This document shows positions 1,980-21,667 of a stretch of 64,000 bases of DNA, piece by piece. Within the stretch, counting starts at the first letter, position 1, and each line of letters starts with the position of its first letter. The DNA comes from an uncultured Bacilli bacterium. GTDB taxonomy: Bacteria; Bacillota_I; Bacilli_A; RFN20; CAG-826. The notes below the pieces were generated by a model. The model saw nothing but the letters and a program-made list of their open reading frames with translations. It was not told the DNA's origin and made no database searches. Location: the NCBI GenBank assembly GCA_944375905.1, contig CALWAS010000027.1, positions 57,679 through 121,678 of the forward strand, written 5' to 3'. Both the position numbers and the translations under genes were made by a program.

Positions 1980-2126
1980 CTTTAGTGCTCCCCAGAACTC
2001 TCCCGAACGGTTTTTTCTATCATTTTCTCGAAGTCGGAGCTAAGCGATTTAACTTCGCCACGCTGGGCCTGCACTTTCATGATCTTCCGAAGGAAATCCT
2101 GATAGAGTGCAGAAACCATCTCGTTA

Positions 2127-4295
2127 TCAATACCCATTGTCGCCAGAATCCTCCCAAAGCGAGACCTGATCTAAGCGATAAGCTTCCATGATTTGGCTTC
2201 GCAAGGCCTCGCTATCAGATGCATTGTCTGCTTCGTTTGCAAATTCTTCAACCCTTTGCAATTCGCGCTTTGCCAATCCCTGCTCAAGGCGCATTGCATC
2301 ATCATCTAAAAACTTGAGTTGTGAAAGGGGCCGAGTGATTGTCACGAAATCGTAAATTTCTGCAATTCGTTTGCCACTGCGGTAATCTTGCCGAAGCAGC
2401 CTGCCTCTCCTTTGAATGTACTCTTTGGGGTTAGTCGTCGAGGCCAAAATGAACGCCGTCCTGATGCACGGGATATCGATTCCTTCGTCAAGACAGCGAA
2501 TGGCAACGAGAGTGTCGATTGTTCCGTCTTTGAAAAGCGAAATCAACTTCTCCCTTTCTTCGGGATCCTCTTGGGCCGTAAAGCGGAAAGCTTTCATTTT
2601 GTGCACGCCATTTAGCAATTGAAGGACGTCACTTATTTGCTTTTGGGACTCGCCTGGGTCTCGGTCCTTATAAGTAACCGACCCGCAATAAACAAGGTTG
2701 AACTTTGATTTTTCATAATTGGTTATCGCCTCATCAAGCGCGCCTAGCTTGTTTCTTGCCCCCGCTACCACAATTGACCGCTTGATCAAATCACGGCGAA
2801 GCTGATTATCTTCATCTGCAGAAAGATAGGATGCCTCAGCCATTATTTTCTTTGTTAGTTTTAAATACTCATAACGCTCATCATCGTCGAGAGCGACAAG
2901 AATTGGGTAATAGCGATAGTGGCATAGAACGCCATTTTCTATTGCCTCTGGAAGCGTATATCGGATAAGGCACGTGCCAAAGAAATTAAGAATCTTATCC
3001 GTACCGAGAGCATCGTGATGACGAGTTATCGTCGCCGAAAGTCCGAGTCGGTAGCGAAAGTCGATCGAAAGGACCTGGCTAGTTTGAGAGGCTCCCAGAT
3101 TATGGCACTCGTCAGCTAGGAAAATCGTCCGCTTTTTAACCGTCTCCAAAATGCTGAGAACCTCAGGCTTGATGAGACTTGATGAAGTAATGATAGCGGC
3201 TTCGAACTTGCTGTAGCCGCCTTTTACGGCCGCTGCGTATTCTTGAAAGCTAGTGAGCCATGTACGCGAATTTCCGCAGCAAATCAGCGGTTTGATCTTA
3301 TATTTTTCGCAATTTTCATTCCACTGATAAACAAGGTTGATCTGAGGAACAACGATAAGCAGGAAGAACGATTTTGAGCTCTTTTCAGGATCTTCGACTA
3401 GCGAAACGACGGCTCCCAATGATGTAATTGTCTTGCCTGTCCCGGTAGCCATATCGAAATAGCCCCTGTAATCATTTTCCTTCCACGCTTGGATGGCTTT
3501 TCTTTGATAGTCGTAATATTTAATGTTTGCGTTTCCCAGACGCGTGTTTAATAGGCGTTGCTTGAACTTCTGCCTCGCATACTCGCGATCAAGATTTTCA
3601 AGTTCTTCTTTGCTAAAGGAGTCTTTGTAAACAAGGATTTTTTCCTTTACTGCTTCCGGAAATTCGATGATTTGCATCCTACTATCGTGATTTGTCCATT
3701 TTCGATTGAACAATATCTTGTGTTCTTGGCATCTAGTCGATGTGTCAGAACCATTCCAAGAGCAGAAAACTTCGGTCGACTCGCGGTTCAAAAGCAAGCC
3801 ATTTGCAGTCAGATTTCCCGAAGAATGGGCAAGGACAACATTTCCAACGCAGTCGGTAAATATATTGATTTTTTCATGAAGCATTTGTTCAGGGCCACCC
3901 GAATTAAGAACGCCGATCTTGATGTCGAGAATGCCATGGCTCACTAGATAAGACAGAAGAGAGAGATACCCTTTTTCAAATTCGTCGCGAGGATCTTCCC
4001 AGGTTGTAAGAAGACGCTTTTCAATTGTTTCCCTAAGTTCATAGCCCTTCGAAATGGCCTCGGCTTCATCCTCCTTCAAGGCCGTCGAAAGGATGAGGTG
4101 AATACGACCATAGTTGTTCGAAATCATTGGGCAAAGCCCGGCCGCTAGCATTTTGAGACTGACGGCCGAGAAGAATCCGGAGATCCCTTCATAGAGCACC
4201 GACTCTTTAAGACACGGAACATAAAGGTCGTCGATGACATCGTCGACCTGCGTCTCATAATGCATTCTCAACTCAAGATCCGATAATGCCATCAA
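2127..4295 (-). CDS. Superfamily-2 DECH-box helicase (ResIII/SNF2-like) with a roughly 270-aa N-terminal domain; candidate restriction/effector component
   Basis: 722-aa ORF. Helicase motifs are Walker A DMATGTGKT, motif II FLADECHNLG, motif III LSATITR and motif VI QRRGRLLR. The N-terminal region contains HEKINIFTD...SSGNLT, a degenerate HxK(x5)D...SGN arrangement reminiscent of PLD/HKD nuclease motifs but with non-canonical spacing. A 4-bp ATGA overlap joins it to the upstream cysteine desulfurase gene. Confidence 0.75.
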   Translation of the reverse strand: MMALSDLELRMHYETQVDDVIDDLYVPCLKESVLYEGISGFFSAVSLKMLAAGLCPMISNNYGRIHLILSTALKEDEAEAISKGYELRETIEKRLLTTWEDPRDEFEKGYLSLLSYLVSHGILDIKIGVLNSGGPEQMLHEKINIFTDCVGNVVLAHSSGNLTANGLLLNRESTEVFCSWNGSDTSTRCQEHKILFNRKWTNHDSRMQIIEFPEAVKEKILVYKDSFSKEELENLDREYARQKFKQRLLNTRLGNANIKYYDYQRKAIQAWKENDYRGYFDMATGTGKTITSLGAVVSLVEDPEKSSKSFFLLIVVPQINLVYQWNENCEKYKIKPLICCGNSRTWLTSFQEYAAAVKGGYSKFEAAIITSSSLIKPEVLSILETVKKRTIFLADECHNLGASQTSQVLSIDFRYRLGLSATITRHHDALGTDKILNFFGTCLIRYTLPEAIENGVLCHYRYYPILVALDDDERYEYLKLTKKIMAEASYLSADEDNQLRRDLIKRSIVVAGARNKLGALDEAITNYEKSKFNLVYCGSVTYKDRDPGESQKQISDVLQLLNGVHKMKAFRFTAQEDPEEREKLISLFKDGTIDTLVAIRCLDEGIDIPCIRTAFILASTTNPKEYIQRRGRLLRQDYRSGKRIAEIYDFVTITRPLSQLKFLDDDAMRLEQGLAKRELQRVEEFANEADNASDSEALRSQIMEAYRLDQVSLWEDSGDNGY

Positions 4296-5419
4296 AAAGC
4301 CTCCACCGCCTTTAATAATGTAATGATATCTTCTTCATTATTAAACACGCCGAGACTAACGCGAACCGTGCCTCCAAAGACCTTCGACCCAATGAAATCA
4401 TGTATGAGCGGCGCACAATGATAGCCAGTCCGCACCGAAATCCCTTCGTTAGCTAGAATCGTCCCTATATCGTCGGACTTATAGCCATCAATGGCAAAGG
4501 AAACAATGCCGTTGTATTTGCAATTTGGTGCAAAGAATAAATGCGTTTTTGGCATCTTACTTAAGCCGTCAATAAGCATCTTTGTTTCTTTTGAAATGGT
4601 TTCGGCTATCTTTGAACGGTTTTCTCTAACAAATCTTGCGCCAGGTATCAAAGAGGCAATCGCCGAAACATTGCGGCTGCCCGCTTCATATCGATAGGGA
4701 AGATCAGCCGGCATTTCCGGATTCAAAGAATCAGATCCCGTGCCGCCGCATATGACAGGAGGCAAATCGCGGTCTCTCATAACGATGAAGCCCCCGACCC
4801 CAAAGCAGCCATAAAGCGTTTTGTGGCCCGCAAAGACAACATAATCCGCATCAGCTAGCCCGCACAACGGATGGATTCCGTAGGCCTGGGCAGCATCAAG
4901 GACATTCACTGAATCGTATTTTCTTCCCAAAGCGAAAATTGCCTCATGCGATATCCTCGCCCCGGTAACGTTGGAAATAGCGCTGAGGAAGATGGCTAGA
5001 GGGTGATCTAGAACGAACATTCGTTCAATTGTTGGAAGATCGGGTTCCCAGTTTTCATCGAAGGGAAGAACCTTGACCTTTACGCCATCATCCTTCAGCC
5101 TTTCTAAGGGCCGGATGATCGCGTTATGCTCGAAGGGAGAAATATAAATCGTGTCGCCCTCCACCGCACCAAGTCCAAGAATGAGGATATTCAAGGCTTC
5201 GGTCGCCGACGAAGCAAAAACGACATGGGACGGATCGATGCCGTTCTCTAGAGAGGCAACGGCCACTCTGGCCTCTTCCACGATGTCGCTTGCCGCTTGG
5301 CTCTCTTTCGATTCGCCACGGCCAGCGTTGAAAGCCAACGTCCGGTTTATCTTGTCGACAAAGTCATAAACTTCTTTCGGTTTGGGAAAAGTCGTTGCTG
5401 CATTGTCCAAATAGATCAT
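4292..5419 (-). CDS. Cysteine desulfurase, class V aminotransferase family (DndA/SspA/IscS-like)
   Basis: 375 aa. N-terminal MIYLDNAATTFPKP is the NifS/IscS signature start. The PLP-lysine motif is FAGHKTLYG, with a glycine-rich loop containing Cys (VICGGTGSD). Start and stop overlap both neighbours, placing it inside the operon. Confidence 0.8.
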   Translation of the reverse strand: MIYLDNAATTFPKPKEVYDFVDKINRTLAFNAGRGESKESQAASDIVEEARVAVASLENGIDPSHVVFASSATEALNILILGLGAVEGDTIYISPFEHNAIIRPLERLKDDGVKVKVLPFDENWEPDLPTIERMFVLDHPLAIFLSAISNVTGARISHEAIFALGRKYDSVNVLDAAQAYGIHPLCGLADADYVVFAGHKTLYGCFGVGGFIVMRDRDLPPVICGGTGSDSLNPEMPADLPYRYEAGSRNVSAIASLIPGARFVRENRSKIAETISKETKMLIDGLSKMPKTHLFFAPNCKYNGIVSFAIDGYKSDDIGTILANEGISVRTGYHCAPLIHDFIGSKVFGGTVRVSLGVFNNEEDIITLLKAVEAF

Positions 5420-8400
5420 TTATCGCTCTCCTTCAAAAGATTGCCAAAGACGTAGAGCAAATCGTTTTTGGAAAGGGCTTGGTTGTATTGCGATAGGATT
5501 TCCCGGATCTGGTTCTCGACAATGTTGGATACTGGCGATAGCTTGGATTCATCGACTACCGATAGCATTTCGCTCGCCGCTCCGAAGGCAGATTTAGCTG
5601 TCTTAAATTTGTCTGAGACAAGATAAGCTAGGAACTGCTCGATCGTTTTGAAGAACATTTCCCGGTTTTTGCCGTTCCAATCAGAGAAATGCAAATCAAT
5701 GGCAGCAATAGAAAGCTCATCAATGAGGGTAGGATCAAAATGCGACTTAGATTCATAAATGGCCTTGGCGATTTGGTTGTACCGGAAATCCCCGACGCCT
5801 TCCTCAACGCTGTACCCGGCTTTCCTTTCGATGCCTTGGAGAATCGAGAGCAACGATCCTTTTTTGCCGGCGATGCCAGGCATCGAAAGAAGCCTTGTTG
5901 AAGTTGATTTCGCCAATTTTGTCTCCATCTCTTCGAAAGACTTCTTTTCTTTCTCTAGGGCGGAGAGGAGCTTATCGAGCCCAATGACCTTGAAATTTCG
6001 CGGCAGGAATTCAAAGAAGAAGTCATTGGGCGAAAGATCATACTTGGTGAGCTCGGCCAAAAAGGTTTCTTTCTCCTTGGAAATGACCATCGGAAATCCA
6101 GCGGCCGTCGCAGTTCGAACAACTTGAGGGAGATTCCGAAACCAGTTCTTAAGACAGTCGAGGGCCTTTTTCCCAGCGCTCCGACCGTCGGCCTCGGCTT
6201 TCCCGCCAAACAATGAAATGACACCGGTAATGAAATCGCTCCGCTCTTTGGCACCACGATCGATCTTAATCTTCCATTCATCAATTTTTGGAGAGGAGAT
6301 GGCCTTATTGATGCCAGCTGAAGAAAATTCCTCCTCTTTCTTCCCGAAATAGAGGCCGAAAGCCTTGTCATCGGCAACTCCAAGTCTTAGGACAGCTAGG
6401 GTAATGAAGAGCGGGATGACGCCCTGTCTTATGCCGTAAGGAGGCTCAATGAGCTTTTGAAGGATCGGCGACACGGAAACCATAATCGCATCCTTACCGT
6501 TCAGCATCCCTTCGACTATTTTGGTCGCGGCATTGATGCCATAAGGATCGCCTTCGGCTTTTGCTTTTTCAAAGAAAATACGATAAATGGTGTTTTCCGG
6601 GCTCGATTCGCTCGTTTCCTCAATGACAGCCCTCTGATTGTCCCCTTTCGTAAGGAGGATGTCGATCAGGCGATCGCGCGCTTTCGCGTAGTTTTTCGTC
6701 GGGTGATCGCGGTTAAGCAACTCGTTATTCACGATCGGGGTATCGGAATAAACCTTCTCGAAAACGCTGCTAAGGATTTCGCTCGCGGTTTTTCCACTGA
6801 AGTTGACTGAAGAAAAGAAGCACGATCCACTATCCTTGTACGCTTTGCCGATGACGGCTCTTATATCGGACTGCAAACGGCTTTTCATCACGTGAAGAGC
6901 TGCCTTGTCATTGTTGCTGAGGCCAGCATCGGTCTCCATTCGCTCATAAGCCTTCCATAAGGAAAGGGCGTGCTCCATGGCATCAAGAGGGAGAGAATTT
7001 GGAACTTGGACGATTATCTTTGGGTCATTGATTTCCTTGACCTTTTTCATGATTGAGTCAGGGCTTCCGCTTGCATCGAAGATCCTTACGATTATTCCGT
7101 CGTATGGCCACCCATAGAGATCCTTGAAAGAAGATAGAGCAAGGAAGGATTCAGAATCGATGTAAGTGATTCTTGCATACCTTGTCATTCGCTTTTGAAC
7201 GTTGTAAGCAAAAGAAGCGACATAGTCGTCCTTGAATATTTCCTTAAGGGCATCGACGGGAGAATAACGACGTAATTCCTTCCTGATTATTTTCTCGGCT
7301 CGGGCATTTATTTCTTTGCTTCCGACGAAAGCGAAATCAAGCCCCCCATCGAATCTGTTAACGCGTACGGCGCCTTCCTTCTCGAGCAAACTTATTTTGT
7401 CGAGTACCTCCTCAAGGGGCAAATCGAGAGCGAGAGCCAAGGTCTGGGCGTTTGCCTTAAGCTTTGTTGAAGGTTGGAGCATGAGGCAGACAGCCATGCC
7501 CTTAACAATCTTCTTGATCTCCGCATCATCATATTTCGAGCAAGTAGCATCACAGCTATAGGCTAGGTTTTTCAAACGATGGTCTGGGCTATCAAAAATC
7601 TGTTTTTCGAAGTAATCCCAAACCGAGTCGATGCCGATAAGATGCCCATTGTTATCCTGTTCGACGAGGGAACGTAGGCCATTGGGATCACTCCCATAAA
7701 TAAAAGTGAACAAGGTGCGCTCGTTCTGCGCAACCTCTTCGTTGATTCTAAGCAAGGCAAAAGTGCTCAATGGGTTTAGTGGGAAGACTAGAGAAGAAAG
7801 CTTTTCTGCATCGATGCCATCAGCAGCTTTGCTAAAGACGCCGAGACGATCGATTTGCCCGAAGTAGTCTTTATTTTTTTCAATATAATCTGCAAAGAAG
7901 GCATTGAAAGCCGAGAGCTTCTCAATGGCAAAGTTGATAAGCTCGGCGCTCTCTTTGAGCGCACGATCAAACTGGCGGAATACAAAGCGCCCTTCGACGG
8001 CCTGAAGAATTTCATTGACGCGATCGTCTTTGGAATAAAGGGAGGTCTTTTTGTGGGCTATGCAGCAAAAATGTATCGAGTAGTTACTATCGCTTCGATT
8101 GGAAAGCTCGGCAAAGTCCTGGATGAAACGAAGCTCGTCGCCGTGGTTTTCAGGGCTTGATTCAAGAAACTTAGAAAATTCGTCAAAGACAACAAAAAGC
8201 CCATCGAACCCGCGCTTTTTAAGTGAAGAGGCCACCGCTTTGTACGTACCGATGGGGTCAGAAGCCAGAATCGGGTTGAACTCACCGCCAGATGTAATGC
8301 AACGATAAATATCACCAAATCGTTTAAAGGCTTGCTCCGAATAAGAACGGAGATCATTGATAAGACGATCGACCTCGCCTTTTTTCAGGTTGCACTGGTC

Positions 8401-8913
8401 AAACTTAGTAGATGAAATGATCCTGTCTTTCTTCCAAGACGAAAGAAGGCGGGCGGCTTCCTCGTAAGCGGTATATGGAACGAGGTCTTCACAATGAGCC
8501 AGCATGAGCCCCGAGCGCAGCCCATTCATAAAGGCTTGCTTCATGCTGCCAAAAGAAGGGCTAATTACGATTGGTATGTAACTTTTGTGATTTTTGATCT
8601 TAGACACAAGATCTGGATCAACCACTTCGACTCTAGAGATGAACTTGTCTAGAGATTTCGCGCTCGCCGCGCCGAACAGAATTTGAAGAATAGCCAGCAG
8701 AAGAAACGATTTTCCTTTGCCATACGCCCCAATAAGCTGGGTCGATTGATTCCGGTTATAGGCCACGTCATCTAGGTAGTCCCCGAGAATCTCGCAAACA
8801 TCAGAAGTTGGGAGATATTCCGTTAGTTTATCAGCCGAGTCTAGGTCAAACTCGATGTTTATTGACGGCTCAAATCGCTCATTCACTCGAATAAGATCAG
8901 TTAGCCTAGTCAT
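5416..8913 (-). CDS. Large P-loop NTPase, BrxC/PglY-like in size and architecture (hypothesis)
   Basis: 1165 aa. N-terminal Walker A GAYGKGKSFLL and Walker B-like LFVVFDEF, followed by roughly 900 aa with no other recognisable motifs. The size (about 1200 aa) and the N-terminal ATPase followed by a long helical body resemble BREX BrxC/PglY-type ATPases. Its start overlaps the stop of the 296-aa ORF by 8 bp, and its stop overlaps the start of the cysteine desulfurase by 4 bp. Confidence 0.5.
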   Translation of the reverse strand: MTRLTDLIRVNERFEPSINIEFDLDSADKLTEYLPTSDVCEILGDYLDDVAYNRNQSTQLIGAYGKGKSFLLLAILQILFGAASAKSLDKFISRVEVVDPDLVSKIKNHKSYIPIVISPSFGSMKQAFMNGLRSGLMLAHCEDLVPYTAYEEAARLLSSWKKDRIISSTKFDQCNLKKGEVDRLINDLRSYSEQAFKRFGDIYRCITSGGEFNPILASDPIGTYKAVASSLKKRGFDGLFVVFDEFSKFLESSPENHGDELRFIQDFAELSNRSDSNYSIHFCCIAHKKTSLYSKDDRVNEILQAVEGRFVFRQFDRALKESAELINFAIEKLSAFNAFFADYIEKNKDYFGQIDRLGVFSKAADGIDAEKLSSLVFPLNPLSTFALLRINEEVAQNERTLFTFIYGSDPNGLRSLVEQDNNGHLIGIDSVWDYFEKQIFDSPDHRLKNLAYSCDATCSKYDDAEIKKIVKGMAVCLMLQPSTKLKANAQTLALALDLPLEEVLDKISLLEKEGAVRVNRFDGGLDFAFVGSKEINARAEKIIRKELRRYSPVDALKEIFKDDYVASFAYNVQKRMTRYARITYIDSESFLALSSFKDLYGWPYDGIIVRIFDASGSPDSIMKKVKEINDPKIIVQVPNSLPLDAMEHALSLWKAYERMETDAGLSNNDKAALHVMKSRLQSDIRAVIGKAYKDSGSCFFSSVNFSGKTASEILSSVFEKVYSDTPIVNNELLNRDHPTKNYAKARDRLIDILLTKGDNQRAVIEETSESSPENTIYRIFFEKAKAEGDPYGINAATKIVEGMLNGKDAIMVSVSPILQKLIEPPYGIRQGVIPLFITLAVLRLGVADDKAFGLYFGKKEEEFSSAGINKAISSPKIDEWKIKIDRGAKERSDFITGVISLFGGKAEADGRSAGKKALDCLKNWFRNLPQVVRTATAAGFPMVISKEKETFLAELTKYDLSPNDFFFEFLPRNFKVIGLDKLLSALEKEKKSFEEMETKLAKSTSTRLLSMPGIAGKKGSLLSILQGIERKAGYSVEEGVGDFRYNQIAKAIYESKSHFDPTLIDELSIAAIDLHFSDWNGKNREMFFKTIEQFLAYLVSDKFKTAKSAFGAASEMLSVVDESKLSPVSNIVENQIREILSQYNQALSKNDLLYVFGNLLKESDK

Positions 8914-9796
8914 GGATGCGAACCTCCATCTTGTGGACGATATTCCTTAGATCGATGCTTTCAGCCGGCATTTCTACAACATTGAGTCCTGCCGTCCTAA
9001 CAACATTGATCAAATTCATCGACTTAAGACGATCGAGGACGGTCATAAATTCATCACGATTCAAATTGAATAGGCGGCCGGGTCCGTTTTTTGCCTCTAG
9101 AAGAGAATCAATCGTATCCTCGTGCGACTTAGATGCTTTCAAAAGGAGGTAATAAAAAACGTATGGCTCAATCTTGTCGAGATCGATCGGCTTTTTTTGA
9201 TAAAGCTGCGTTTCCTTTCTTTCTAGAAGCGAAAAGGCGGAAAGAGGACAATTAAGGTTGTTTTCGGGATCATCGATGGGATCCGATACATAGGTTCTAA
9301 CCAAAACGCTAAGATCGTCGCTCACGATCGATTCCTGTGGGGATTCCCCAAAGTGCTCAGCGCACCACTCCCCAAACGAACGAATGAACGTCTCTTTGCT
9401 AAATGATTCATGGGGCAGCATTTCATTGAAGAGGAAATAGAAAAGAGGCGCCTTGGATTCGGAGGCCACAATGTTCGCATGGATCAGCTGCCAGCTGCCG
9501 GCTTTGAGAAGATAAGGATCAGCTTCGAAAATGATGCTTGCTTCCTCTGAAAGTTCAGGCTTTAGCTTTTTGTTGACGTCCAAAAGACCGGCACATTCCA
9601 TCCAATAGCGAAGAGCCGATACCATGTTCGACCCTATTCCGAGGCAGACGGGGCCATCGCTTTTCGAAAATACATTGAAGCGCCCATTGGCGTTAATAAG
9701 CTCACGATAGGCCTTGCTTAACCAACCTTCGCGAATGGAAAAACTCTGGCTAAGCTTGAATTGGGGCTTGGTCATCCGTGATTCATTGTTTTCCAT
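8906..9796 (-). CDS. Hypothetical protein (296 aa), translationally coupled between the DndC-like and BrxC-like genes
   Basis: ORF with AT-rich island codon usage. It overlaps the DndC-like stop by 14 bp and the downstream start by 8 bp. I recognise no catalytic motif; it lacks the DGQHR/ParB-like signature of DndB/SspB. Confidence 0.55.
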   Translation of the reverse strand: MENNESRMTKPQFKLSQSFSIREGWLSKAYRELINANGRFNVFSKSDGPVCLGIGSNMVSALRYWMECAGLLDVNKKLKPELSEEASIIFEADPYLLKAGSWQLIHANIVASESKAPLFYFLFNEMLPHESFSKETFIRSFGEWCAEHFGESPQESIVSDDLSVLVRTYVSDPIDDPENNLNCPLSAFSLLERKETQLYQKKPIDLDKIEPYVFYYLLLKASKSHEDTIDSLLEAKNGPGRLFNLNRDEFMTVLDRLKSMNLINVVRTAGLNVVEMPAESIDLRNIVHKMEVRIHD

Positions 9797-11537
9797 TTTT
9801 GATCCTCAGAACTTTCTTCATGTAGCAACCGCTGTCGAAGTGTGAAACGCACTCAAGACAATGCCGGCACTTGTCGGGATTAATCGTATATATGACAGAA
9901 TCGAGAGAAGCATCGCCTTTCTTTGAATTCGAGACATGCAGCGCTCCAAAACGGCATACAGACTCGCAAGCGCCACAAGCAAGGCAGGTTTGGAACTTGG
10001 TAATCTGTGAGTTAATCAAAAGCTCTCCAAGATGACGGTTTTTGAATCGGCCTTTATTACTTAAAATCGCAACCCTGAGAGTCGTGCTTCCTTTAATTCC
10101 CCTAAGCTGAAGAATCGGCTCTCTTGTCACTGAATCAAGGACATATGCCTCCCCCAGTTTCGGATTCCCCATCGAGAAATCGAGTATCCCAAATGGTTTG
10201 AAAAGGGTATAAAGCATATCGTCAATCGGCCGTGACAACTCAAAATTTATGGCATTCTCGTCAAAAGCACACGGCTTAAACGTAACGATGGTGTTTTTGC
10301 CTAAAGCAAGCCCGTTTCCGCCTTGTCTTGCCTTCCACTTGCCAGTATCGACGTATTCTTTCCAATCAGGTTTTCCAACGCTCTTGGCAAAATCATAAAG
10401 AAGATTTTGAAAATCCCCATAGAGTTCCGGCATATATATCGACGACAGAAAGCCCGACCAAATGCTGTTATTTGGACAACACCAACATCCGACACGAGAA
10501 AAGCCCTGACGGTAGGCGTGGTTGAAATCGAGTTTGTTCGAAATGATGTAAAGCCAGTCGTCAAAGGAAGTCCAATCGATGATTGGGGAGCAGACAACCT
10601 GTTTTGTTATCTTCGAATCAGCACTGTCGCGGGAATAATTGGATCGCGAAACCGATTCCATCCTGCGTACGCCGAAAAATGTCAAAATCCGCGGCGTCTT
10701 GGCAAAAAGAGACTCAATAGTCTTGGTAATGGCACCTGTCTTGAAAACGGTACAGCACCACCGCATGACCCTTGATGGCGGGCCTATCTTGCGACACAGA
10801 TCATTGAAATCCTGATCTTTGTTTTTTGCCTCAATTAGCGGCGTCCCCGGATAACGCTTCCTAAAGCGGGCGACGTATTCATGAGTCGTTGGGTATTCAA
10901 GCGTCGTATCTCCATAAATATGAACGATGGTTTCGCTTCCTAAGGACTTCATGGCAAGATGGCTCACTACCGTCGAATCCTTGCCTCCGGAGAAACTCAC
11001 GAAAGAATTCGCAGCCGTATAGCCCCTTGCCCGCTCTAATATGTAAGCAGTTGCTTCATCTGTAATTTCGGCCAGTCTTGAACGATTCACGCGGCAAAAT
11101 GCCGCGATTTCCTCTGAATCAAGGTACCCATCGACATATGGCTGATTAGCAGATGCAAATTCGGCAAGTTTTTTTCGTATCTCGCTCGGATCTCTCTTTA
11201 TCATCTGACTTTGGGAAAACTTAACGATCTGCCCGTCTATGACGTAAGATCCCGACCCGATAGCCCACACAGAGTGCCCTGCATATTTCATGGGAACATC
11301 GTTTAGGACCTCGATCAATAAACGTTCTTCGGGAAAAACGGGTCGAAGGTCGGTCCCTATCCGATGGCATTTTCCATGGCATTCCGGACAAGTATCGTAA
11401 AAGGACGGCGCGTTGCATTTAGAACACCAAAAAATCGAAGCCGAAAAGACCCTTGCCCGGCTTCCGCAAACAGGGCAGGTACTAGTTTCGCACAGCGTTC
11501 CCTGACACTCTTTTCGTTCGCATTTATATATAATCAT
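9783..11537 (-). CDS. DndC/SspD-like PAPS-reductase-family PP-loop ATP pyrophosphatase with N-terminal Zn-ribbons and a C-terminal 2x[4Fe-4S] ferredoxin-like domain
   Basis: 584 aa. The PP-loop SFSGGKDST is followed by MRWCCTVFK, the DndC/CysH-like cysteine region. The N-terminus has four CxxC pairs (CERKECQGTLCETSTCPVCGS...CSKCNAP...CPECHGKC). The C-terminus reads CLACGACESVCRFGAL...CRHCLECVSHFDSGC, the classic CxxCxxCxxxC + CxxCxxC ferredoxin pattern. It is the first gene after a roughly 325-bp AT-rich promoter-like gap. Confidence 0.8.
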   Translation of the reverse strand: MIIYKCERKECQGTLCETSTCPVCGSRARVFSASIFWCSKCNAPSFYDTCPECHGKCHRIGTDLRPVFPEERLLIEVLNDVPMKYAGHSVWAIGSGSYVIDGQIVKFSQSQMIKRDPSEIRKKLAEFASANQPYVDGYLDSEEIAAFCRVNRSRLAEITDEATAYILERARGYTAANSFVSFSGGKDSTVVSHLAMKSLGSETIVHIYGDTTLEYPTTHEYVARFRKRYPGTPLIEAKNKDQDFNDLCRKIGPPSRVMRWCCTVFKTGAITKTIESLFAKTPRILTFFGVRRMESVSRSNYSRDSADSKITKQVVCSPIIDWTSFDDWLYIISNKLDFNHAYRQGFSRVGCWCCPNNSIWSGFLSSIYMPELYGDFQNLLYDFAKSVGKPDWKEYVDTGKWKARQGGNGLALGKNTIVTFKPCAFDENAINFELSRPIDDMLYTLFKPFGILDFSMGNPKLGEAYVLDSVTREPILQLRGIKGSTTLRVAILSNKGRFKNRHLGELLINSQITKFQTCLACGACESVCRFGALHVSNSKKGDASLDSVIYTINPDKCRHCLECVSHFDSGCYMKKVLRIKNGKQ

Positions 11538-11862
11538 GTGCGTTCAGAAAGATTGTACCATGTACTTATTGGGACAGTCTTATCGATGCTCCACAAAAGA
11601 GCCAAACACAATCTGTAGGAACCTTTTATTTCTGACATCATTTTGTCTAAATTTCTTGATATTTCGTCAGTCAACGAAGTAATTTACTCGATTATGTCTT
11701 AATCATATAAAATATGTATTCGTAAGTTAAAAAACTGATTGTATGTTCCATTTTGCTTGCCAGGAATAAAAGCCATGCGCGATAACTTAATAAAGAAGGT
11801 TGCCGTTTTTCTTGCTGAACAACAGTTTCGCTGACACTTCTATAGCTGGACGTTGTGAAAAG

Positions 11863-13284
11863 TCAGGCATCGTTGCCATTTAGCGAAAGGTAGAATCTCG
11901 AATCCGAATAAATCGCTCCCGTATCCCTTATCAAAAAGGTCTTTGACAAATATGAACGGACTATTCCAACCAGAAGGTATTTGTTCCATTCATAGTCCAA
12001 TTGGGGCAGATTCCAAAAACTGAAATATTCGTCAACTCTGATTTCTTTTTTCTCTCCAATCTCCGATTTTAAACCTCTGGTTATGGATTCTATCGTTTCT
12101 TCGCTTAACTGAAATTTGCTTTTAGAAACGATGCGATTGGAATCCACTTCCACATAATCGGGCGCAGTAATGTCCAAAAGCCATTTCCTGCTGTCTATAC
12201 CGTTGATATGGATCCTTTGGCAAAATTTATTTATCTCATCGAAAGAAATGATTTCTTTGCTATAAACGAATTCTATGATCAAATCGTCTCCGGTAAGTTT
12301 GATCCGCTTAGTTGCTGAAACATATGGCTCCTTAAAGAAATATTTTCTTCCATAGTAACAAGCGGCAAGAAAATACAAGCCCTGCTCATTTGCAAAAGAT
12401 CCTAATTCTTTCAAGAAAGTCGGATGGGCGATAGCAAAAGACGAATACAACTTACCTCTTGCAACAACTCCCACTGGGCTGCTTGAAATGATTTTCCGTA
12501 ACGTAGAGCCGATGCAAATAATAGCTGCTTCGCTGATTTTTTCATCGGCAAGGCGACGATAAGAAGAACGATTGCGCAAAAAGTCCTCATAGTAAGAAAG
12601 ATATCTCTCAACCAGTTCGATCTTCTTTTGATCGAAGAATTCACCCTTTGCTTTGGCTATTGTTTTGTCCCTTAAGGAACAAAAATTGTTGAGAGAGTCC
12701 AGAAGGAAGAAGTCGGTAAATGACTTGCTGACCTTTCGAAGCAATCCGTTGATTATCTGGAAACTGTCAATGACAGCCTTAACTGATGCCGGGGAAAACC
12801 GCCTGATGGTCAATGCTTGGACAAATTCATCCTTTGTTTCCTTGGCGAAATGAGCCTTAGCTTCCTCGGGTTCCGCGACCGGATGGCAATGATAAAGGAA
12901 AAAGCACTCCTTTAAATCGACGCCATAGGCTTCCAAAAGACATTGAATGTTCATCATCGAATGGCTAGACGTGTGGTTGGTGTCGAGATAAAGGTCGCGA
13001 AACGGAGAATAGTTGGTCCTTCGAGTCCGGGAGAAAACTACGCACTTGCTCCACTTGTAACGGATGGAGAGCAGTTCTTCATCGCTTTTTGGATTGCGGC
13101 GGTCTAATTCGGAAAGAATACCAAGTGTCATTCGGTTCCAGCTTCCGGCACAGACCAAAATATCACGGTAGCTAAACAAATAAGGGGTTGTGTTTTCCAA
13201 ACACGGCAGCGGATTCGTCATGTCGAATTCGTAGTAGCGCCTACCATCGATATATCGAATTTTATATTTCTCTTCTATTCCCAC
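11863..13284 (-). CDS. Hypothetical protein (473 aa), first gene of the AT-rich island inside the boundary
   Basis: Long ORF with island-like AT-rich codon usage and no recognisable motifs. It has the same orientation as the modification operon and lies directly inside the GC-content transition. Confidence 0.5.
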   Translation of the reverse strand: MGIEEKYKIRYIDGRRYYEFDMTNPLPCLENTTPYLFSYRDILVCAGSWNRMTLGILSELDRRNPKSDEELLSIRYKWSKCVVFSRTRRTNYSPFRDLYLDTNHTSSHSMMNIQCLLEAYGVDLKECFFLYHCHPVAEPEEAKAHFAKETKDEFVQALTIRRFSPASVKAVIDSFQIINGLLRKVSKSFTDFFLLDSLNNFCSLRDKTIAKAKGEFFDQKKIELVERYLSYYEDFLRNRSSYRRLADEKISEAAIICIGSTLRKIISSSPVGVVARGKLYSSFAIAHPTFLKELGSFANEQGLYFLAACYYGRKYFFKEPYVSATKRIKLTGDDLIIEFVYSKEIISFDEINKFCQRIHINGIDSRKWLLDITAPDYVEVDSNRIVSKSKFQLSEETIESITRGLKSEIGEKKEIRVDEYFSFWNLPQLDYEWNKYLLVGIVRSYLSKTFLIRDTGAIYSDSRFYLSLNGNDA

Positions 13285-13411
13285 GTTTTGTAAATGATAA
13301 CGCAGATCCCGACCGACGAATATTTATTTACAAATTGAACAAACTGAGTCCCCTTCTCCTTCACTTTGCCATAAAAAACTGTCTCTAAAATTGTCTTATG
13401 CAATATGGAAA

Positions 13412-13452
13412 CCGCAGCAAAAAGCCCGGCTTCGATAAGAAACCGGGCTCTC
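13412..13452. terminator. Bidirectional rho-independent terminator at the island/host junction
   Basis: AAAAAGCCCGGCTTCGATAAGAAACCGGGCTCTCTTTTT has a GCCCGG/CCGGGC stem flanked by an A-run and a T-run. On the minus strand it lies just downstream of the stop of the 770-aa lipoprotein gene. Confidence 0.5.
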
Positions 13453-13466
13453 TTTTTCGTTTTACC

Positions 13467-15779
13467 CTATTCGACGATGTCGAAGTAGATGCCGCCGACG
13501 AGAATCCAGGCCAGGCGCATCGTTACATGTCCCTTCGTGTAGATCTGGGCCCCGGGGTAAGGCGGATCCGGGTCGAGGACATAGCCGTTTTCGACCAGTA
13601 GCTCCTTGTAGGCCGCGTACCACTCGTCGTCGCAGCCCGACTTGGTGCTATTGGAGATATCGACCGTGTAGAGATAGACCGAATCCCACTTGCGGTAGGT
13701 CTCGGGGTGATAGAGATAAGGAATCGTCGCGGCGTCTTCTTCCCCATAGAAGGCCACGAAATCGGCATAGACCTCAGGGCTATCCTCTTCCCAAGTGGTC
13801 GGTTCGACCCAGGCTGGAAGGGACGATAGCTCGTCTACGAGGCCATCGGGAAGAACTACATCTTCATCGTAAAGGAACGTGCAGACGTCATGTCCCTCCA
13901 TCGTGAGGCCGTCGTCGGTATCGTAACTCATCTCGGCGATCCTTCCTTCCGCGTCGAGGCGGAGGCGGAGGGTCGAGATGACGATGTCGCTCCCGTTCCG
14001 CCCGAGGATCATCCGGTCCTTGACGCCGGTCAGGACGAAGTCGCGGATGACGTAGGAGCCGTCATCGTCCTTCTCGAAGAGAAGGGGCGAGACGTCGAAG
14101 CGGAAATGGGAGGAAAGCGCCTCGTCGAGAGCAACGTCGACCCGCGAGGCATCTTCCCCGTTCGGCTTGATGAAGCGCTGGCTTTTGCCGCCGTCGAGGT
14201 AATAGCCCTCGTAATCGGTCGAGATCGTTCCCGAGAAACGCTGGGAGATGTCCTCGTAGACGAGGTGTTCCCGGTCGTAATAGATGTTGAGCTGGTTTTC
14301 CTCCGTCCTTTCCTCGTGGGAAAGCATGGCGAAGGCGTGGCTTCCGTCGAAATAGGCGAAGGCCCTTTCGAGGGCTTCTTGGTCCTCACTATCGAGGCCG
14401 GTCGCCGGCACGACGTCGACGAACTCGCCTTCGGGGTCGAGCTCGACGGTGATGACGACCGAGTAATGGAGGAGACCATCCACCATCTCGGGATAGGTGA
14501 CGACGAGATGGTCGAAGAGCCCGTTTTCGTCGAGATAGACATAGACGCTCTCCGGGCTCGAGAGGGCACCCATGAAGGAAATCTCGCCCATCTCGTCCCC
14601 GCGCGTGCCAAGGTAGCGGTAGCCATCGCCTTCCTTGCGGAAGGCCGTTAGGTCGGAAGCGAGGACCGCGTAAGGCGTCGGGTAGTCGTCTTCCCATTCG
14701 TAGTACTCGCCAAGCCGCTCGGAAGAGACGGCGTTATCAGCATTGAGTCCGCGGACGGCCGTCCAGCCATCGTCGTTGAAATAGACGGCCTCTTCCTTTT
14801 CCCCGCCGGCCTCCTCTTGATAGAGGCGGACCTCGTCGATGAGGCGGTCGGACCTCGTCTTGGCAACGAAGGTCTTATTGCCGCTCCCGGTCTCCACCAT
14901 TTCCATCGTCGAGACGAGGGAGACGCATTTCGTCTCGCTCGGCATAAGGTCGGAGATGGAAGTCTCGGAAAGGGGCTCGCCGCTCGGGGTGAGGAAGGAA
15001 GCGAGATAGTCGTCGGCTTCCTTGATCGAGGCGCTTCCGACGTCGCGGAATACCCCTTGGCAGTCTTTGACCTCGGCGTATTCCTGCTTCAATGGGTCGT
15101 AGATCTGAAGCGAGAAGGCGAGATCGCCGCCGTCGAGGTAGAAGCGGGCTTGCCCGAAGGTCTTGTCGATGGCGTCCTGCCCATAGCCAAGTCCCGTCGC
15201 GAGGGCATAGATGATCTTCTCGTTTCTAGTGTAGGCGTAATCGCCTTCCTCGAAGAAGTTCTGGACCTGCAGGGTGTTTTCGAGCGGCGAGAAGAAGTCG
15301 AAATCGGAAAGATCCGTCTTCAAGACACCGTTCGCCACATAGGGATAGCCGAGGCGGAAGGCCCCGGTCGAATCGAAATAGAAGAGGTAGACGATTTTGT
15401 CGGCAATCGCCTTGTCGTAGCTATCGATCAGTGCATAGCCGGTGTTCGAAAGGGATTGATAGAAATAGCTGCCCCGATGGACATCCCGGGCAAAGACGCC
15501 TTCGTAGGTCGACTCGATGGCGTAGTCGTCGTTTTCGGCGACGTCGAGGAGGAGCTCGAAGGCTTCCTTCGCCGTCACCGGCTCCTCGACTTCGACGGAC
15601 GAGGAGGAACCGGAACTAGAGGAGGCTGACGATGACGACGAGGCTGAAGATGAGGAAACGGACTCTGATCCCGAAGTGGAGCCAGCGCCCGAACTAGAGC
15701 TGGACGACGAAAGCCCCGTCTCCCCGCAGGAAGCGAGGAGAAGGGACAGCAGAATGGCAGGAAAGCACTTAAATCTCAT
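13467..15779 (-). CDS. Lipoprotein with a serine-rich linker (770 aa), function unknown
   Basis: N-terminal MRFKCFPAILLSLLLASCGE has the lipobox LLASC, followed by a roughly 50-residue run of S/G/A. High-GC codon usage. The long antisense ORFs on the plus strand are GC artefacts. Confidence 0.7.
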   Translation of the reverse strand: MRFKCFPAILLSLLLASCGETGLSSSSSSSGAGSTSGSESVSSSSASSSSSASSSSGSSSSVEVEEPVTAKEAFELLLDVAENDDYAIESTYEGVFARDVHRGSYFYQSLSNTGYALIDSYDKAIADKIVYLFYFDSTGAFRLGYPYVANGVLKTDLSDFDFFSPLENTLQVQNFFEEGDYAYTRNEKIIYALATGLGYGQDAIDKTFGQARFYLDGGDLAFSLQIYDPLKQEYAEVKDCQGVFRDVGSASIKEADDYLASFLTPSGEPLSETSISDLMPSETKCVSLVSTMEMVETGSGNKTFVAKTRSDRLIDEVRLYQEEAGGEKEEAVYFNDDGWTAVRGLNADNAVSSERLGEYYEWEDDYPTPYAVLASDLTAFRKEGDGYRYLGTRGDEMGEISFMGALSSPESVYVYLDENGLFDHLVVTYPEMVDGLLHYSVVITVELDPEGEFVDVVPATGLDSEDQEALERAFAYFDGSHAFAMLSHEERTEENQLNIYYDREHLVYEDISQRFSGTISTDYEGYYLDGGKSQRFIKPNGEDASRVDVALDEALSSHFRFDVSPLLFEKDDDGSYVIRDFVLTGVKDRMILGRNGSDIVISTLRLRLDAEGRIAEMSYDTDDGLTMEGHDVCTFLYDEDVVLPDGLVDELSSLPAWVEPTTWEEDSPEVYADFVAFYGEEDAATIPYLYHPETYRKWDSVYLYTVDISNSTKSGCDDEWYAAYKELLVENGYVLDPDPPYPGAQIYTKGHVTMRLAWILVGGIYFDIVE

Positions 15780-21044: not shown

Positions 21045-21073
21045 GGAGAGATTGTAACGAGCGAAAAGATGGC

Positions 21074-21667
21074 TCACCAAACGAAATCGCCCTTGATGAG
21101 CTTTTTCCGGCACCGCTCGTAATCGGGGAACTCGCTTTTGAGGAGGATGTGGAAGCCCCGTCCGTGGTCGAAATAGAAATGATGGCAAAGCTCATGGACG
21201 ACGACGCTATCGATGATATGGGGATCGTAGCTCGACAAAGAGAGGGCGAAAGTGAGGGCGTGGCTCCTCCGGGAGTTCGAGCCAAGGCGGGTCTTCATCT
21301 TCCTCACCTTGACCGCATAGGGCGGGAAGACCCCGATTTTCCCTTCGTAAGAGGCAACGGCCTCCCGAAGGTAGGCGAGCAATAGCCGCTTCCTTTCCGC
21401 TTCGCCCGGTTCGGCTTCGACCTTCTTCCCAAAGAGGTAGCACCCGTCTTCTTTCTTCGAACGCTCAAGCAAGGAGAGAATCGACCGCTCGCTTTTCTTT
21501 ATCAAGGAGAGGACGTCCGAAAATCTCATGGCATAGGGTGCGGAAACCGCGATTCCCCCGTCCCTAGCGGGCCGGAAATACACCCTTTTGATTCTCTTGA
21601 AGCGGACCTCGACGCGGATTTCCCTCCCGCCAAGGACGATCCTTCCCTCTTCGAGCCGCTCTTTCAT
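21074..21667 (-). CDS. DUF45/YgjP-like metal-dependent hydrolase (HExxH)
   Basis: 197 aa. C-terminal VVHELCHHFYFDHGRGFHILLKSEFPDY is the YgjP/WLM-type zinc-hydrolase motif. The remaining sequence context also fits the family. Confidence 0.7.
   Translation of the reverse strand: MKERLEEGRIVLGGREIRVEVRFKRIKRVYFRPARDGGIAVSAPYAMRFSDVLSLIKKSERSILSLLERSKKEDGCYLFGKKVEAEPGEAERKRLLLAYLREAVASYEGKIGVFPPYAVKVRKMKTRLGSNSRRSHALTFALSLSSYDPHIIDSVVVHELCHHFYFDHGRGFHILLKSEFPDYERCRKKLIKGDFVW

What the first reader, a model, noticed from the sequence alone, without database searches (positions are those of the whole stretch)
9783..11537. DndC-like PP-loop enzyme with added N-terminal Zn-ribbons and C-terminal double [4Fe-4S] ferredoxin domain
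The protein has the PAPS-reductase PP-loop (SFSGGKDS) and the DndC-type Cys region (RWCC). It is flanked by four N-terminal CxxC pairs and a C-terminal CxxCxxCxxxC...CxxCxxC ferredoxin signature. Canonical DndC/SspD carry a single intrinsic Fe-S cluster, not a bacterial-ferredoxin module. The extra redox domain suggests a different electron-transfer or sulfur-relay mechanism, or a different substrate (possibly RNA rather than DNA, as in TtuA/TtcA-type thiolases that pair PP-loops with Zn-fingers and Fe-S).
Basis: seen in the sequence. Interest (0 to 1): 0.7.

Follow-up and report, generated by a model that had tools for sequence, protein, structure and literature searches.

The report
Ordinary long-form SspD phosphorothioation enzyme
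This gene encodes the sulfur-inserting enzyme (SspD) of a DNA phosphorothioate defence system, and its extra zinc-ribbon and ferredoxin domains are real but are the normal, already reported architecture of a very large family rather than a new invention.

Summary

The protein is not an oddity.
- It is the first gene of a tightly overlapping sspD-sspB-sspC-sspA operon. That operon is followed by a PbeA/B/C restriction cassette, all in a low-GC island.
- Its best defence-family match is BrxP, the PAPS-reductase enzyme of type 4 BREX (4e-77, residues 59-583).
- Among 92 full-length relatives at 50% identity or less, the eight ferredoxin Cys are 95-98% conserved. The APS-reductase-type CC...CxxC site is 96-100% conserved and one Zn ribbon 77-80%.
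- Only the first of the two ribbons is specific to the nearest clade.

A 2026 NAR paper already describes the PAPS reductase + alpha/beta + ferredoxin-like arrangement in BrxP and in "a subset of SspD", with role unknown. An RNA substrate is not supported, because gene context and fold point to DNA phosphorothioation.

The ferredoxin module probably relays electrons to the catalytic cluster, but this is an inference. Verdict: a new member of a known kind, of low interest. The role of the ferredoxin domain remains an open question for the whole family.

The parts
9783..11537 (-). sspD: 584-aa long-form (BrxP-like) SspD, a PP-loop sulfurtransferase
   Evidence: ORF. Pfam PAPS_reduct plus Fer4. 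PADLOC BrxP 4.4e-77, SspD 2e-12, DndC 4e-8. AF2 model with pLDDT 86 and pTM 0.84.
11439..11537 (-). Zn ribbon 1 (residues 1-33: C6, C11, C21, C24, plus C16); specific to the nearest clade
   Evidence: Cys positions. Invariant among the >=55% identity relatives. Absent from most of the 92 distant representatives. Modelled as beta-hairpins, pLDDT about 88-90.
11358..11438 (-). Zn ribbon 2 (residues 34-60: WCxxC...CPxC; C38, C41, C50, C53); typical of the family
   Evidence: Cys present in 77-80% of 92 representatives and in >=90% of alignment A2.
11022..11357 (-). N-terminal beta/alpha domain and helical linker (residues 61-172; RPVFxEE motif)
10458..11021 (-). PP-loop ATP-pyrophosphatase (PAPS-reductase) domain, with SFSGGKDS at residue 181 and a predicted catalytic-site [4Fe-4S] (C261, C262, C351, C354)
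10038..10457 (-). Helical segment plus alpha+beta domain (residues 361-500; WKxRxGG motif; C423)
   Evidence: Secondary structure and conservation. PMC12839542 calls the equivalent BrxP domain Mog1p/PsbP-like; I did not test this independently.
9786..10037 (-). C-terminal 2x[4Fe-4S] ferredoxin domain (residues 501-584; C518, C521, C524, C528, C557, C560, C563, C571)
   Evidence: Pfam Fer4 and Fer4_7. Cys conserved 95-98%. Family profile matches ferredoxins 1fdn, 1clf and 1fca. Aligns with complex I NuoI/TYKY.
8906..9796 (-). sspB (DUF4007, 296 aa); overlaps sspD by 14 nt
   Evidence: Pfam DUF4007 3.6e-61. PADLOC SspB 1e-42.
5416..8913 (-). sspC (1165-aa BrxC/ORC-type ATPase); overlaps sspB by 8 nt
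   Evidence: PADLOC SspC 3.4e-72.
4292..5419 (-). sspA (PLP cysteine desulfurase, 375 aa); overlaps sspC by 4 nt
   Evidence: Pfam Aminotran_5 4.6e-66. PADLOC SspA 1e-33 and DndA 4.5e-33.
2127..4295 (-). pbeA-like restriction component (SF2 helicase with an N-terminal HKD-type region)
   Evidence: PADLOC PbeA 1e-203. NCBIfam TIGR04095 dnd_restrict_1 3e-140, 468 bits, below its 600-bit cut-off. An HxK motif, LHEKINIFTD, can be read in the sequence.
1982..2137 (-). 51-aa ORF in the position of PbeB (the small, rapidly evolving protein)
   Evidence: Translation. Called as a gene in L001. PbeB is described this way in PMC10853773.
1..1982 (-). pbeC-like CxC ABC ATPase (first 660 of about 683 aa; cut by the window start)
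   Evidence: PADLOC PbeC 1.5e-73. Pfam AAA_15 and AAA_23. Full length seen in L001.
11863..13284 (-). 473-aa ORF upstream of sspD, inside the low-GC island; whether it belongs to the system is uncertain
   Evidence: No family match. Found only in contigs of this same element.

Best explanation
**Identity.** The ORF encodes the SspD subunit, in its long, BrxP-like form, of an SspABCD DNA phosphorothioation module. That module is paired with a PbeABC(D)-type restriction cassette on a horizontally acquired low-GC island.

**Anatomy.**
- Two N-terminal Zn ribbons.
- A small beta/alpha domain and a helical linker.
- A PP-loop ATP-pyrophosphatase domain of the PAPS/APS-reductase fold, with an APS-reductase-type [4Fe-4S] site (C261, C262, C351, C354).
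- An alpha+beta domain.
- A clostridial-type 2x[4Fe-4S] ferredoxin domain.

**Shown here.** The domains, the conservation of their Cys, the operon, and the recurrence of the synteny.

**Taken from the literature on homologues.**
- SspA makes a persulfide and binds SspD.
- SspD and DndC are ATP pyrophosphatases.
- SspB and SspC select and handle the DNA.
- ssp and brxPC systems make CpsC-type phosphorothioates in gut bacteria.

**Inferred mechanism.** ATP activates the target phosphodiester at the PP-loop site. Sulfur from SspA is delivered to the catalytic [4Fe-4S]. The two ferredoxin clusters act as a built-in wire. They bring low-potential electrons to that site to reduce the persulfide to cluster-bound sulfide, which replaces the non-bridging oxygen. 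The Zn ribbons most likely serve as docking or DNA-contact modules.

Identity and role as the PT sulfurtransferase: about 0.85-0.9. The electron-relay role of the ferredoxin domain: about 0.4-0.5.
For: **Family matches**
- Pfam PAPS_reduct 1.5e-33 plus Fer4 and Fer4_7.
- PADLOC BrxP 4.4e-77 over residues 59-583. The neighbours score SspB 1e-42, SspC 3e-72, SspA 1e-33 and PbeA 1e-203; PbeC scores 1.5e-73.

**Operon and synteny**
- Genes overlap by 14, 8 and 4 nt.
- tblastn of the window proteins against the 80 species-level loci found SspB next to the homologue in 60, SspC in 58, SspA in 48 and PbeA in about 28-30.

**Conservation of Cys**
- In 92 representatives at <=50% identity: C261 100%, C262 96%, C351 and C354 99%, the ferredoxin Cys 95-98%.
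- All of these are invariant in alignment A2.
- C261, C262, C351 and C354 align with the CC...CxxC cluster ligands of APS reductases.

**Structure**
- The family profile matches 2[4Fe-4S] ferredoxins.

**Literature**
- BrxP = SspD+SspB, and brxP+brxC give PT; 34 gut isolates with ssp genes carry CpsC (PMC12914056).
- The same PAPS reductase + alpha/beta + ferredoxin-like arrangement is found in BrxP and a subset of SspD (PMC12839542).
- An SspA-SspD complex has been shown (PMC7188994).
- DndC cluster ligands are shared with APS reductase (PMC12193691).
Against: - No biochemical data exist for this protein or any close relative.
- The match to the PADLOC SspD model is weak and partial (2e-12, residues 180-311). 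The protein therefore belongs to the BrxP-like branch rather than the branch that model represents.
- I could not obtain the sequence of the reference V. cyclitrophicus SspD for comparison.
The distances between the three predicted clusters, and hence the feasibility of an electron relay, were not measured.
- The published PT chemistry for DndC is itself disputed (a SAM-radical claim, noted in PMC10853773).
- The ferredoxin domain could be structural or a redox/oxygen sensor rather than a relay.
Confidence: 0.85

Rival explanations
1. A tRNA/RNA thiolase of the TtuA/TtcA/Ncs6 type. These enzymes also combine a PP-loop, Zn fingers and an Fe-S cluster, and this one would act on RNA rather than DNA.
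Against: - The cluster motif is the APS-reductase CC...CxxC, not the TtuA arrangement.
- No TtcA/TtuA family appears in the Pfam table or among the 25 NCBIfam matches listed (of 27).
- The gene is translationally coupled to SspB, SspC, SspA and a DNA restriction cassette, and that synteny recurs in dozens of species.
- The fused homologue BrxP is genetically tied to DNA PT (PMC12914056).
Confidence: 0.02
2. A metabolic, ferredoxin-dependent APS/PAPS reductase for sulfate assimilation. The fused ferredoxin would replace thioredoxin as electron donor, and the gene's position next to defence genes would be coincidental.
For: - The catalytic core is structurally closest to APS/PAPS reductases and keeps their CC...CxxC cluster ligands.
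- The nearest NCBIfam models are archaeal PAPS-reductase-plus-ferredoxin hypothetical proteins: PRK13795, 5e-61 over residues 139-565.
Against: - Scores are far below the cut-offs for every CysH/APS reductase model, for example TIGR02055 at 50.6 bits against 235.
- No C-terminal ECG[LI]H catalytic motif follows the CxxC (sequence).
- The conserved operon is with SspB/C/A, not with sulfate-assimilation genes.
- The gene lies on a low-GC island.
Confidence: 0.03
3. It is the PT sulfurtransferase, but the ferredoxin domain and Zn ribbons are not redox-active in catalysis. They would serve as structural scaffolds, as protein or DNA docking surfaces, or as an oxygen/redox sensor that switches modification off. 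This is comparable to the Fe-S clusters of DNA repair glycosylases and helicases.
For: - The roles of these elements are stated to be unclear (PMC12839542).
- The Vibrio, Shewanella and E. coli Ssp systems studied in the papers read here come from organisms that can live in air (my own knowledge).
- The PADLOC SspD model has only 277 positions and starts at the PP-loop. This hints that other SspD may be shorter, but I could not verify it.
- BrxP fusions mostly lack the Zn ribbon (13 of 16 representatives of >=700 aa). This fits a docking role that covalent fusion to DUF4007 makes redundant.
Against: - All eight cluster ligands are conserved 95-98% across 28-46% identity. That fits functional clusters, though it does not show what they do.
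- Persulfide-derived sulfur needs two electrons to reach the sulfide level, and no other reductant is encoded in the operon.
Confidence: 0.3

Closest known systems
BrxP of type 4 BREX (for example Bacteroides salyersiae; PADLOC PDLC02510)
   Same: It has the same enzymatic half: PAPS-reductase PP-loop domain, alpha+beta domain and Cys-rich 2x[4Fe-4S] ferredoxin-like region. It is the best HMM match (4.4e-77, residues 59-583). Its partner ATPase BrxC is homologous to SspC. brxP+brxC make PT (PMC12914056).
   Different: BrxP is fused to DUF4007 (about 780 aa), whereas here DUF4007 is the separate next gene. Most BrxP representatives lack the N-terminal Zn ribbon. The system here has no PglZ or BrxL and instead carries SspA plus a Pbe cassette.
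SspD of SspABCD (Vibrio cyclitrophicus FF75, Shewanella frigidimarina)
   Same: It occupies the same position and has the same partners (SspA, SspB, SspC). It has a PAPS-reductase PP-loop domain. PMC12839542 states that a subset of SspD has the BrxP-like arrangement.
   Different: The match to the PADLOC SspD model is only partial and weak (2e-12, model positions 4-132 of 277). The gene order here is D-B-C-A. The restriction partner is Pbe-like rather than SspE or SspFGH. I could not retrieve the architecture of the reference Vibrio protein.
DndC of DndABCDE (TIGR03183)
   Same: It is a PP-loop ATP pyrophosphatase with an APS-reductase-like [4Fe-4S] site. The RW-C motif that follows a Pro-rich loop corresponds to the FRW-C146 'specificity loop' region of E. 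coli B7A DndC (PMC12193691).
   Different: It scores 32 bits against a cut-off of 290. According to the papers read, DndC has one intrinsic [4Fe-4S] (PMC12193691) and a Cys dyad of its own, whereas the alpha+beta and ferredoxin-like regions are features BrxP has in addition (PMC12839542). DndC works with DndD/DndE rather than SspB/SspC.
Assimilatory APS reductase (P. aeruginosa 2GOY, M. tuberculosis 7LHR)
   Different: This protein has no C-terminal catalytic Cys tail. It scores far below the family cut-offs. It also has extra N- and C-terminal domains and sits in a defence operon.
Archaeal PAPS-reductase-ferredoxin hypothetical proteins (NCBIfam PRK13795 group)
   Same: The PAPS-reductase core plus C-terminal ferredoxin region align over residues 139-565 (5e-61). 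The fusion of this core to a di-cluster ferredoxin is therefore old and widespread.
   Different: The score is below the cut-off (207 bits against 456). The N-terminal region does not align. The function of those proteins is unknown, and I did not examine their gene context.
TtuA/TtcA/NcsA [4Fe-4S]-dependent tRNA thiolases
   Same: They share the PP-loop, Zn-binding Cys pairs and a catalytic [4Fe-4S] that carries sulfide. They are a useful mechanistic analogy.

Membership tests
SspD (Ssp phosphorothioation system) | PAPS-reductase-type PP-loop ATP-pyrophosphatase domain with an SGGKDS motif | tested here: met
   PF01507 at 1.5e-33, residues 179-356. SFSGGKDS at residue 181.
SspD (Ssp phosphorothioation system) | Encoded next to sspB (DUF4007) and sspC (ATPase), with sspA or another cysteine desulfurase available | tested here: met
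   The genes are overlapping neighbours: DUF4007 3.6e-61, SspC 3.4e-72, SspA 1e-33. The synteny recurs in 58-60 of 80 species loci.
SspD (Ssp phosphorothioation system) | Match to the SspD sequence model | tested here: inconclusive
   PADLOC SspD gives 2.1e-12 over residues 180-311 only, whereas BrxP gives 4.4e-77. 35 of 36 diverse relatives also hit SspD weakly, the best at 3e-22.
SspD (Ssp phosphorothioation system) | ATP pyrophosphatase activity, binding to SspA, and a requirement for PT formation | not testable with these tools
   Known only for the Vibrio and Shewanella proteins (PMC7188994).
BrxP (type 4 BREX) | PAPS-reductase + alpha/beta + ferredoxin-like enzymatic region | tested here: met
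   PADLOC BrxP 4.4e-77, model positions 23-518 of 779. Ferredoxin Cys are conserved.
BrxP (type 4 BREX) | Fusion to DUF4007 in one polypeptide | tested here: not met
   The protein ends at residue 584. DUF4007 is the next ORF, which matches BrxP model positions 528-769 on its own.
BrxP (type 4 BREX) | Operon with BrxC, PglZ (BrxZ) and BrxL | tested here: not met
   None of the operon proteins matches PglZ or a Lon-like BrxL. The downstream genes are SspA, PbeA, PbeB-like and PbeC.
DndC (TIGR03183) | Score above the curated cut-off of the DndC model | tested here: not met
   32 bits against a cut-off of 290.4. PADLOC DndC gives 4e-8 over residues 179-339 only.
DndC (TIGR03183) | Works with a DndD ABC ATPase and DndE in the modification module | tested here: not met
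   The modification partners here are SspB and SspC. The only ABC ATPase is the CxC-type PbeC of the restriction cassette.
2[4Fe-4S] bacterial-type ferredoxin domain (Pfam Fer4 / Fer4_7) | Two Cys motifs supplying eight cluster ligands, and a score above the gathering threshold | tested here: met
   PF00037 at 27.5 bits (cut-off 21.1) and PF12838 at 27.6 bits (cut-off 27). CxxCxxCxxxC plus CxxCxxC(x7)C, all invariant in A2. Profile matches to 1fdn, 1clf and 1fca. Cluster binding itself was not tested.
Assimilatory APS reductase | CC...CxxC [4Fe-4S] ligands | tested here: met
   They align with the ligands of 2goy and 7lhr and are conserved 96-100%.
Assimilatory APS reductase | Family model score, and a C-terminal catalytic Cys (ECG[LI]H) tail | tested here: not met
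   TIGR02055 scores 50.6 bits against 235.3. No such motif follows CWCCP (sequence).
TtuA/TtcA tRNA thiolases | Closest fold and sequence family, and an RNA-modification context | tested here: not met

The most novel reading that the evidence does not exclude
In this large BrxP/long-SspD clade, phosphorothioate synthesis would be a redox-driven reaction.
- The fused di-cluster ferredoxin would feed low-potential electrons to an APS-reductase-type catalytic [4Fe-4S].
- That cluster would reductively cleave the SspA persulfide and carry sulfide (a [4Fe-5S]-like intermediate) onto an ATP-activated DNA phosphodiester.
- DNA backbone marking would then be coupled to the cell's redox state.
- The N-terminal Zn ribbon(s) would be the docking element for SspB/SspC that covalent fusion replaces in BrxP.
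Probability: 0.35. Interest if true: 0.6.

Novelty: new member of a known kind. Interest (0 to 1): 0.25.

Why it matters
For this locus, the result is mainly a correct annotation. It is a complete SspABCD phosphorothioation module with a Pbe-type restriction cassette, on an acquired island in a gut or rumen-type anaerobe.

The wider point concerns the family, not this gene. The chemistry of the oxygen-to-sulfur swap in DNA phosphorothioation is still unsettled. Most members of the BrxP/long-SspD family carry a strictly conserved di-cluster ferredoxin whose role the literature calls unclear.

A well-behaved member such as this one has a confident model, three predicted clusters and a compact operon. 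It could serve as a test case for whether PT synthesis needs an electron supply.

Tried and rejected
- **AlphaFold database search (afdb50).** I wanted annotated full-length relatives, including Vibrio SspD, but the library was not available.
- **Reference V. cyclitrophicus SspD.** No supplementary files are held for PMC12914056. tblastn against plasmids found no proteobacterial SspD; the only full-length relative was on Treponema saccharophilum pTS1. Whether the reference SspD has the ferredoxin domain therefore rests on the 'subset of SspD' statement in PMC12839542.
- **Solved structures.** Sequence and fold searches of the PDB found no solved SspD, BrxP or DndC, only the PAPS/APS reductase core and ferredoxins.
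- **Inter-cluster distances.** Model coordinates are not exposed to scripts, so distances could not be measured.
- **Host identification.** The exact-sequence cluster look-up returned no names. There is no tRNA or Rfam hit in the window.
- **Promoter scan upstream of sspD.** It gave no more sites than the shuffled controls.
- **Rejected readings.** RNA thiolase, metabolic APS reductase, bona fide DndC and bona fide BrxP (see the rival explanations and membership tests).
Full report
**1. The observation**

The coordinates 9783..11537 correspond exactly to a 584-aa ORF on the minus strand. A script confirmed each motif:
- SFSGGKDS at residue 181.
- RWCC at 259 (C261, C262).
- CWCC at 351.
- CLACGACESVC at 518, then CRHCLEC at 557 and a further Cys at 571.
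- Ten Cys in the first 57 residues.

The protein has 27 Cys in all. One detail needs correcting. It has three N-terminal CxxC pairs plus one Cx4C, although the consensus of its close relatives does have four CxxC pairs.

Pfam finds PAPS_reduct at residues 179-356 (E 1.5e-33). It also finds Fer4 and Fer4_7 at 517-565, both above their gathering scores, Fer4_7 only just (27.6 against 27).

**2. The gene and its neighbourhood**

The gene heads a run of minus-strand genes whose ends overlap:

| Gene | Coordinates | Evidence |
|---|---|---|
| sspD | 9783..11537 | this ORF |
| sspB | 8906..9796 | DUF4007, 3.6e-61 |
| sspC | 5416..8913 | PADLOC SspC 3.4e-72 |
| sspA | 4292..5419 | class-V aminotransferase / cysteine desulfurase |
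| pbeA-like | 2127..4295 | PADLOC PbeA 1e-203; TIGR04095 'DNA phosphorothioation system restriction enzyme' 3e-140 |
| PbeB-like | 1982..2137 | 51-aa ORF |
| pbeC-like | 1..1982 | CxC ABC ATPase, PADLOC PbeC 1.5e-73, cut by the window start |

- PMC10853773 defines PbeA as an HKD nuclease fused to an SF2 helicase, PbeB as a small, rapidly evolving protein, PbeC as the CxC ABC ATPase, and PbeD as a DndE cognate.
- The stretch 1..14000 has GC 0.44-0.48, against 0.52-0.61 for the rest of the window, so it is an acquired island.
- The rest of the window carries ordinary chromosomal genes: glycogen phosphorylase, branching enzyme, SbcC and LRR adhesins.
- The same element occurs in several metagenome contigs.

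**3. How the protein compares with its relatives**

- *Best family match.* Among defence-system models the best match is BrxP, the PAPS-reductase enzyme of type 4 BREX. It scores 4.4e-77 and covers residues 59-583, so the match includes the ferredoxin region. SspD scores 2e-12 and DndC 4e-8, and both cover only the PP-loop core.
- *Word-indexed search.* It returned 7387 relatives. The best 120 are nearly all about 580 aa and are pre-annotated PAPS_reduct + Fer4.
- *Exhaustive search of 50%-identity representatives.* It found 2970 clusters at E<1e-3 and 346 at E<1e-30.
- *Cys conservation in 92 full-length representatives*: C261 100%, C262 96%, C351 and C354 99%, the eight ferredoxin Cys 95-98%, and the second Zn ribbon (C38, C41, C50, C53) 77-80%. 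The first ribbon (C6..C24) is confined to the nearest clade.
- *Curated alignment of 36 members at 28-46% identity.* It shows the same pattern, with the PP-loop, CC, CxxC and all eight ferredoxin Cys invariant.
- *Fused forms.* Representatives of about 780 aa are PAPS_reduct + Fer4 + DUF4007, that is, BrxP fusions. 13 of the 16 representatives of >=700 aa lack the N-terminal CxxC pairs.

The terminal Cys motifs are therefore separate domains relative to DndC, but they are ordinary conserved features of this family.

**4. Structure**

- An AlphaFold2 model built on 59 sequences is confident (pLDDT 86, pTM 0.84).
- No solved SspD, BrxP or DndC was found.
- Pairwise alignments place C261/C262 on the CC, and C351/C354 on the CxxC, that are the [4Fe-4S] ligands of the P. 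aeruginosa and M. tuberculosis APS reductases. These are the same ligands reported as shared with E. coli DndC (PMC12193691).
- A family profile matches solved clostridial 2[4Fe-4S] ferredoxins (1fdn, 1clf, 1fca; E about 4e-8 to 1e-7) and polyferredoxins. The single sequence aligns with complex I subunit NuoI/TYKY.
- The prediction is three [4Fe-4S] clusters and two Zn sites per chain. I could not measure cluster-to-cluster distances because the coordinates are not exposed.

**5. Context across species**

- A scan of one genome per species confirmed 395 relatives among the first 600 pattern matches. The best 80 come from gut and rumen Clostridia, Treponema, Methanobrevibacter, Bacteroidales and Fibrobacter, and also from Chloroflexi, Poribacteria and a Heimdallarchaeote.
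- tblastn of the window proteins against those loci shows SspB adjacent in 60, SspC in 58 and SspA in 48. A PbeA-like gene lies directly after SspA in about 28, and these counts are limited by the 8-kb flank.
- The 473-aa ORF upstream of sspD is unique to this element.
- Treponema saccharophilum pTS1 carries a 42% homologue followed by DUF4007, an SspC-sized protein, a desulfurase, a helicase, an ATPase and a PLD protein.

**6. Literature**

- PMC12914056 (Nat Commun 2026) shows that BrxP is in effect an SspD-SspB fusion. It shows that brxP+brxC with a host desulfurase suffice for PT in Bacteroides, and that 34 gut isolates with ssp genes carry CpsC.
- PMC12839542 (NAR 2026, section 34) states that the type 4 BREX PAPS reductase lacks the DndC Cys dyad. 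Instead it has a Mog1p/PsbP-like alpha+beta domain followed by a conserved Cys-rich 4Fe-4S ferredoxin-type region. The paper says the roles are unclear and that the arrangement also occurs in a subset of SspD. Its main text does not mention an N-terminal Zn ribbon.
- PMC7188994 shows an SspA-SspD complex and describes SspD as an ATP pyrophosphatase.

**7. Mechanism**

- *Shown here:* the domain anatomy, the conserved ligands, and the operon and its recurrence.
- *From the literature on homologues:* the desulfurase-to-SspD sulfur hand-off, ATP pyrophosphatase activity, and PT as the product.
- *Inferred:* the PP-loop site activates the phosphodiester with ATP, the catalytic [4Fe-4S] receives sulfur, and the two ferredoxin clusters supply the electrons needed to bring persulfide sulfur to the sulfide level. 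The ribbons would serve docking or DNA contact. That idea fits their frequent absence where DUF4007 is fused.
- *Alternatives:* a structural or redox-sensing role for the ferredoxin (about 0.3), an RNA thiolase (about 0.02), or a metabolic APS reductase (about 0.03).

**8. Verdict**

The domains are real and absent from DndC, but they are family-typical and the C-terminal part is already published. The RNA idea is not supported.

This is a new member of a known kind. Interest is low (0.25). The open question, what the ferredoxin domain does in PT synthesis, belongs to the whole family rather than to this locus.

Noticed in passing
window 1-5419 (pbeC 1..1982, small ORF 1982..2137, pbeA 2127..4295, after sspA 4292..5419); loci L005-L076: The ssp modification genes are followed directly by a PbeA/PbeB-like/PbeC cassette. 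The same SspD-B-C-A-PbeA order recurs in about 28 of the 48 species-level loci where SspA was detected. The papers I read describe Pbe with Dnd systems or standing alone, not paired with Ssp.
   Followed up: partly
window 11863-13284 (-): A 473-aa ORF lies immediately upstream of sspD inside the low-GC island. It has no Pfam, PADLOC or NCBIfam match and no counterpart next to the sspD homologue in any of the 80 species loci.
   Followed up: partly
window 1-14000 versus 14001-64000: There is a sharp GC shift (0.44-0.48 against 0.52-0.61) marking an acquired island. Its right edge lies near 13.3-13.5 kb and its left edge is outside the window. No tRNA or Rfam match occurs in the window, and none of the island ORFs scanned matched an integrase.
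   Followed up: partly
L035 (Methanobrevibacter sp. MAG), match at 6904-8640: The closest species-level homologue (58-59% identity) is in a rumen methanogen and sits in the same SspD-B-C-A-PbeA-PbeC cassette. This suggests transfer of the whole system between bacteria and archaea in gut habitats.
   Followed up: no
representatives P0121-P0270: Most stand-alone long SspD of about 525-590 aa keep an N-terminal Zn ribbon. 13 of the 16 representatives of >=700 aa, which include the DUF4007-fused BrxP forms, lack it. The ribbon may therefore be the docking element for the DUF4007 partner.
   Followed up: partly
L061, L062, L065, L067, L068, L069: A more distant branch (35-37% identity) has a different gene order: SspB-SspC upstream of SspD, then SspA, with PbeA following in five of the six loci (not detected in L067).
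   Followed up: no
L004 (Treponema saccharophilum pTS1), 12001-13689: The 42% sspD homologue has no CDS in the plasmid gene table, although its DUF4007, ATPase and desulfurase neighbours are listed. It is possibly a pseudogene or simply missing from the incomplete table.
   Followed up: no
window 13467-15779 (-) and 15776-17371 (-): Two adjacent, overlapping genes for Ser-rich putative lipoproteins (signal peptide followed by a Cys, then long poly-Ser linkers) flank the island on the host side.
   Followed up: no
window 18393-21188 (-) and 31100-33334 (+): These are large leucine-rich-repeat adhesin-like proteins. The second also has a collagen-like Gly-rich region.
   Followed up: no
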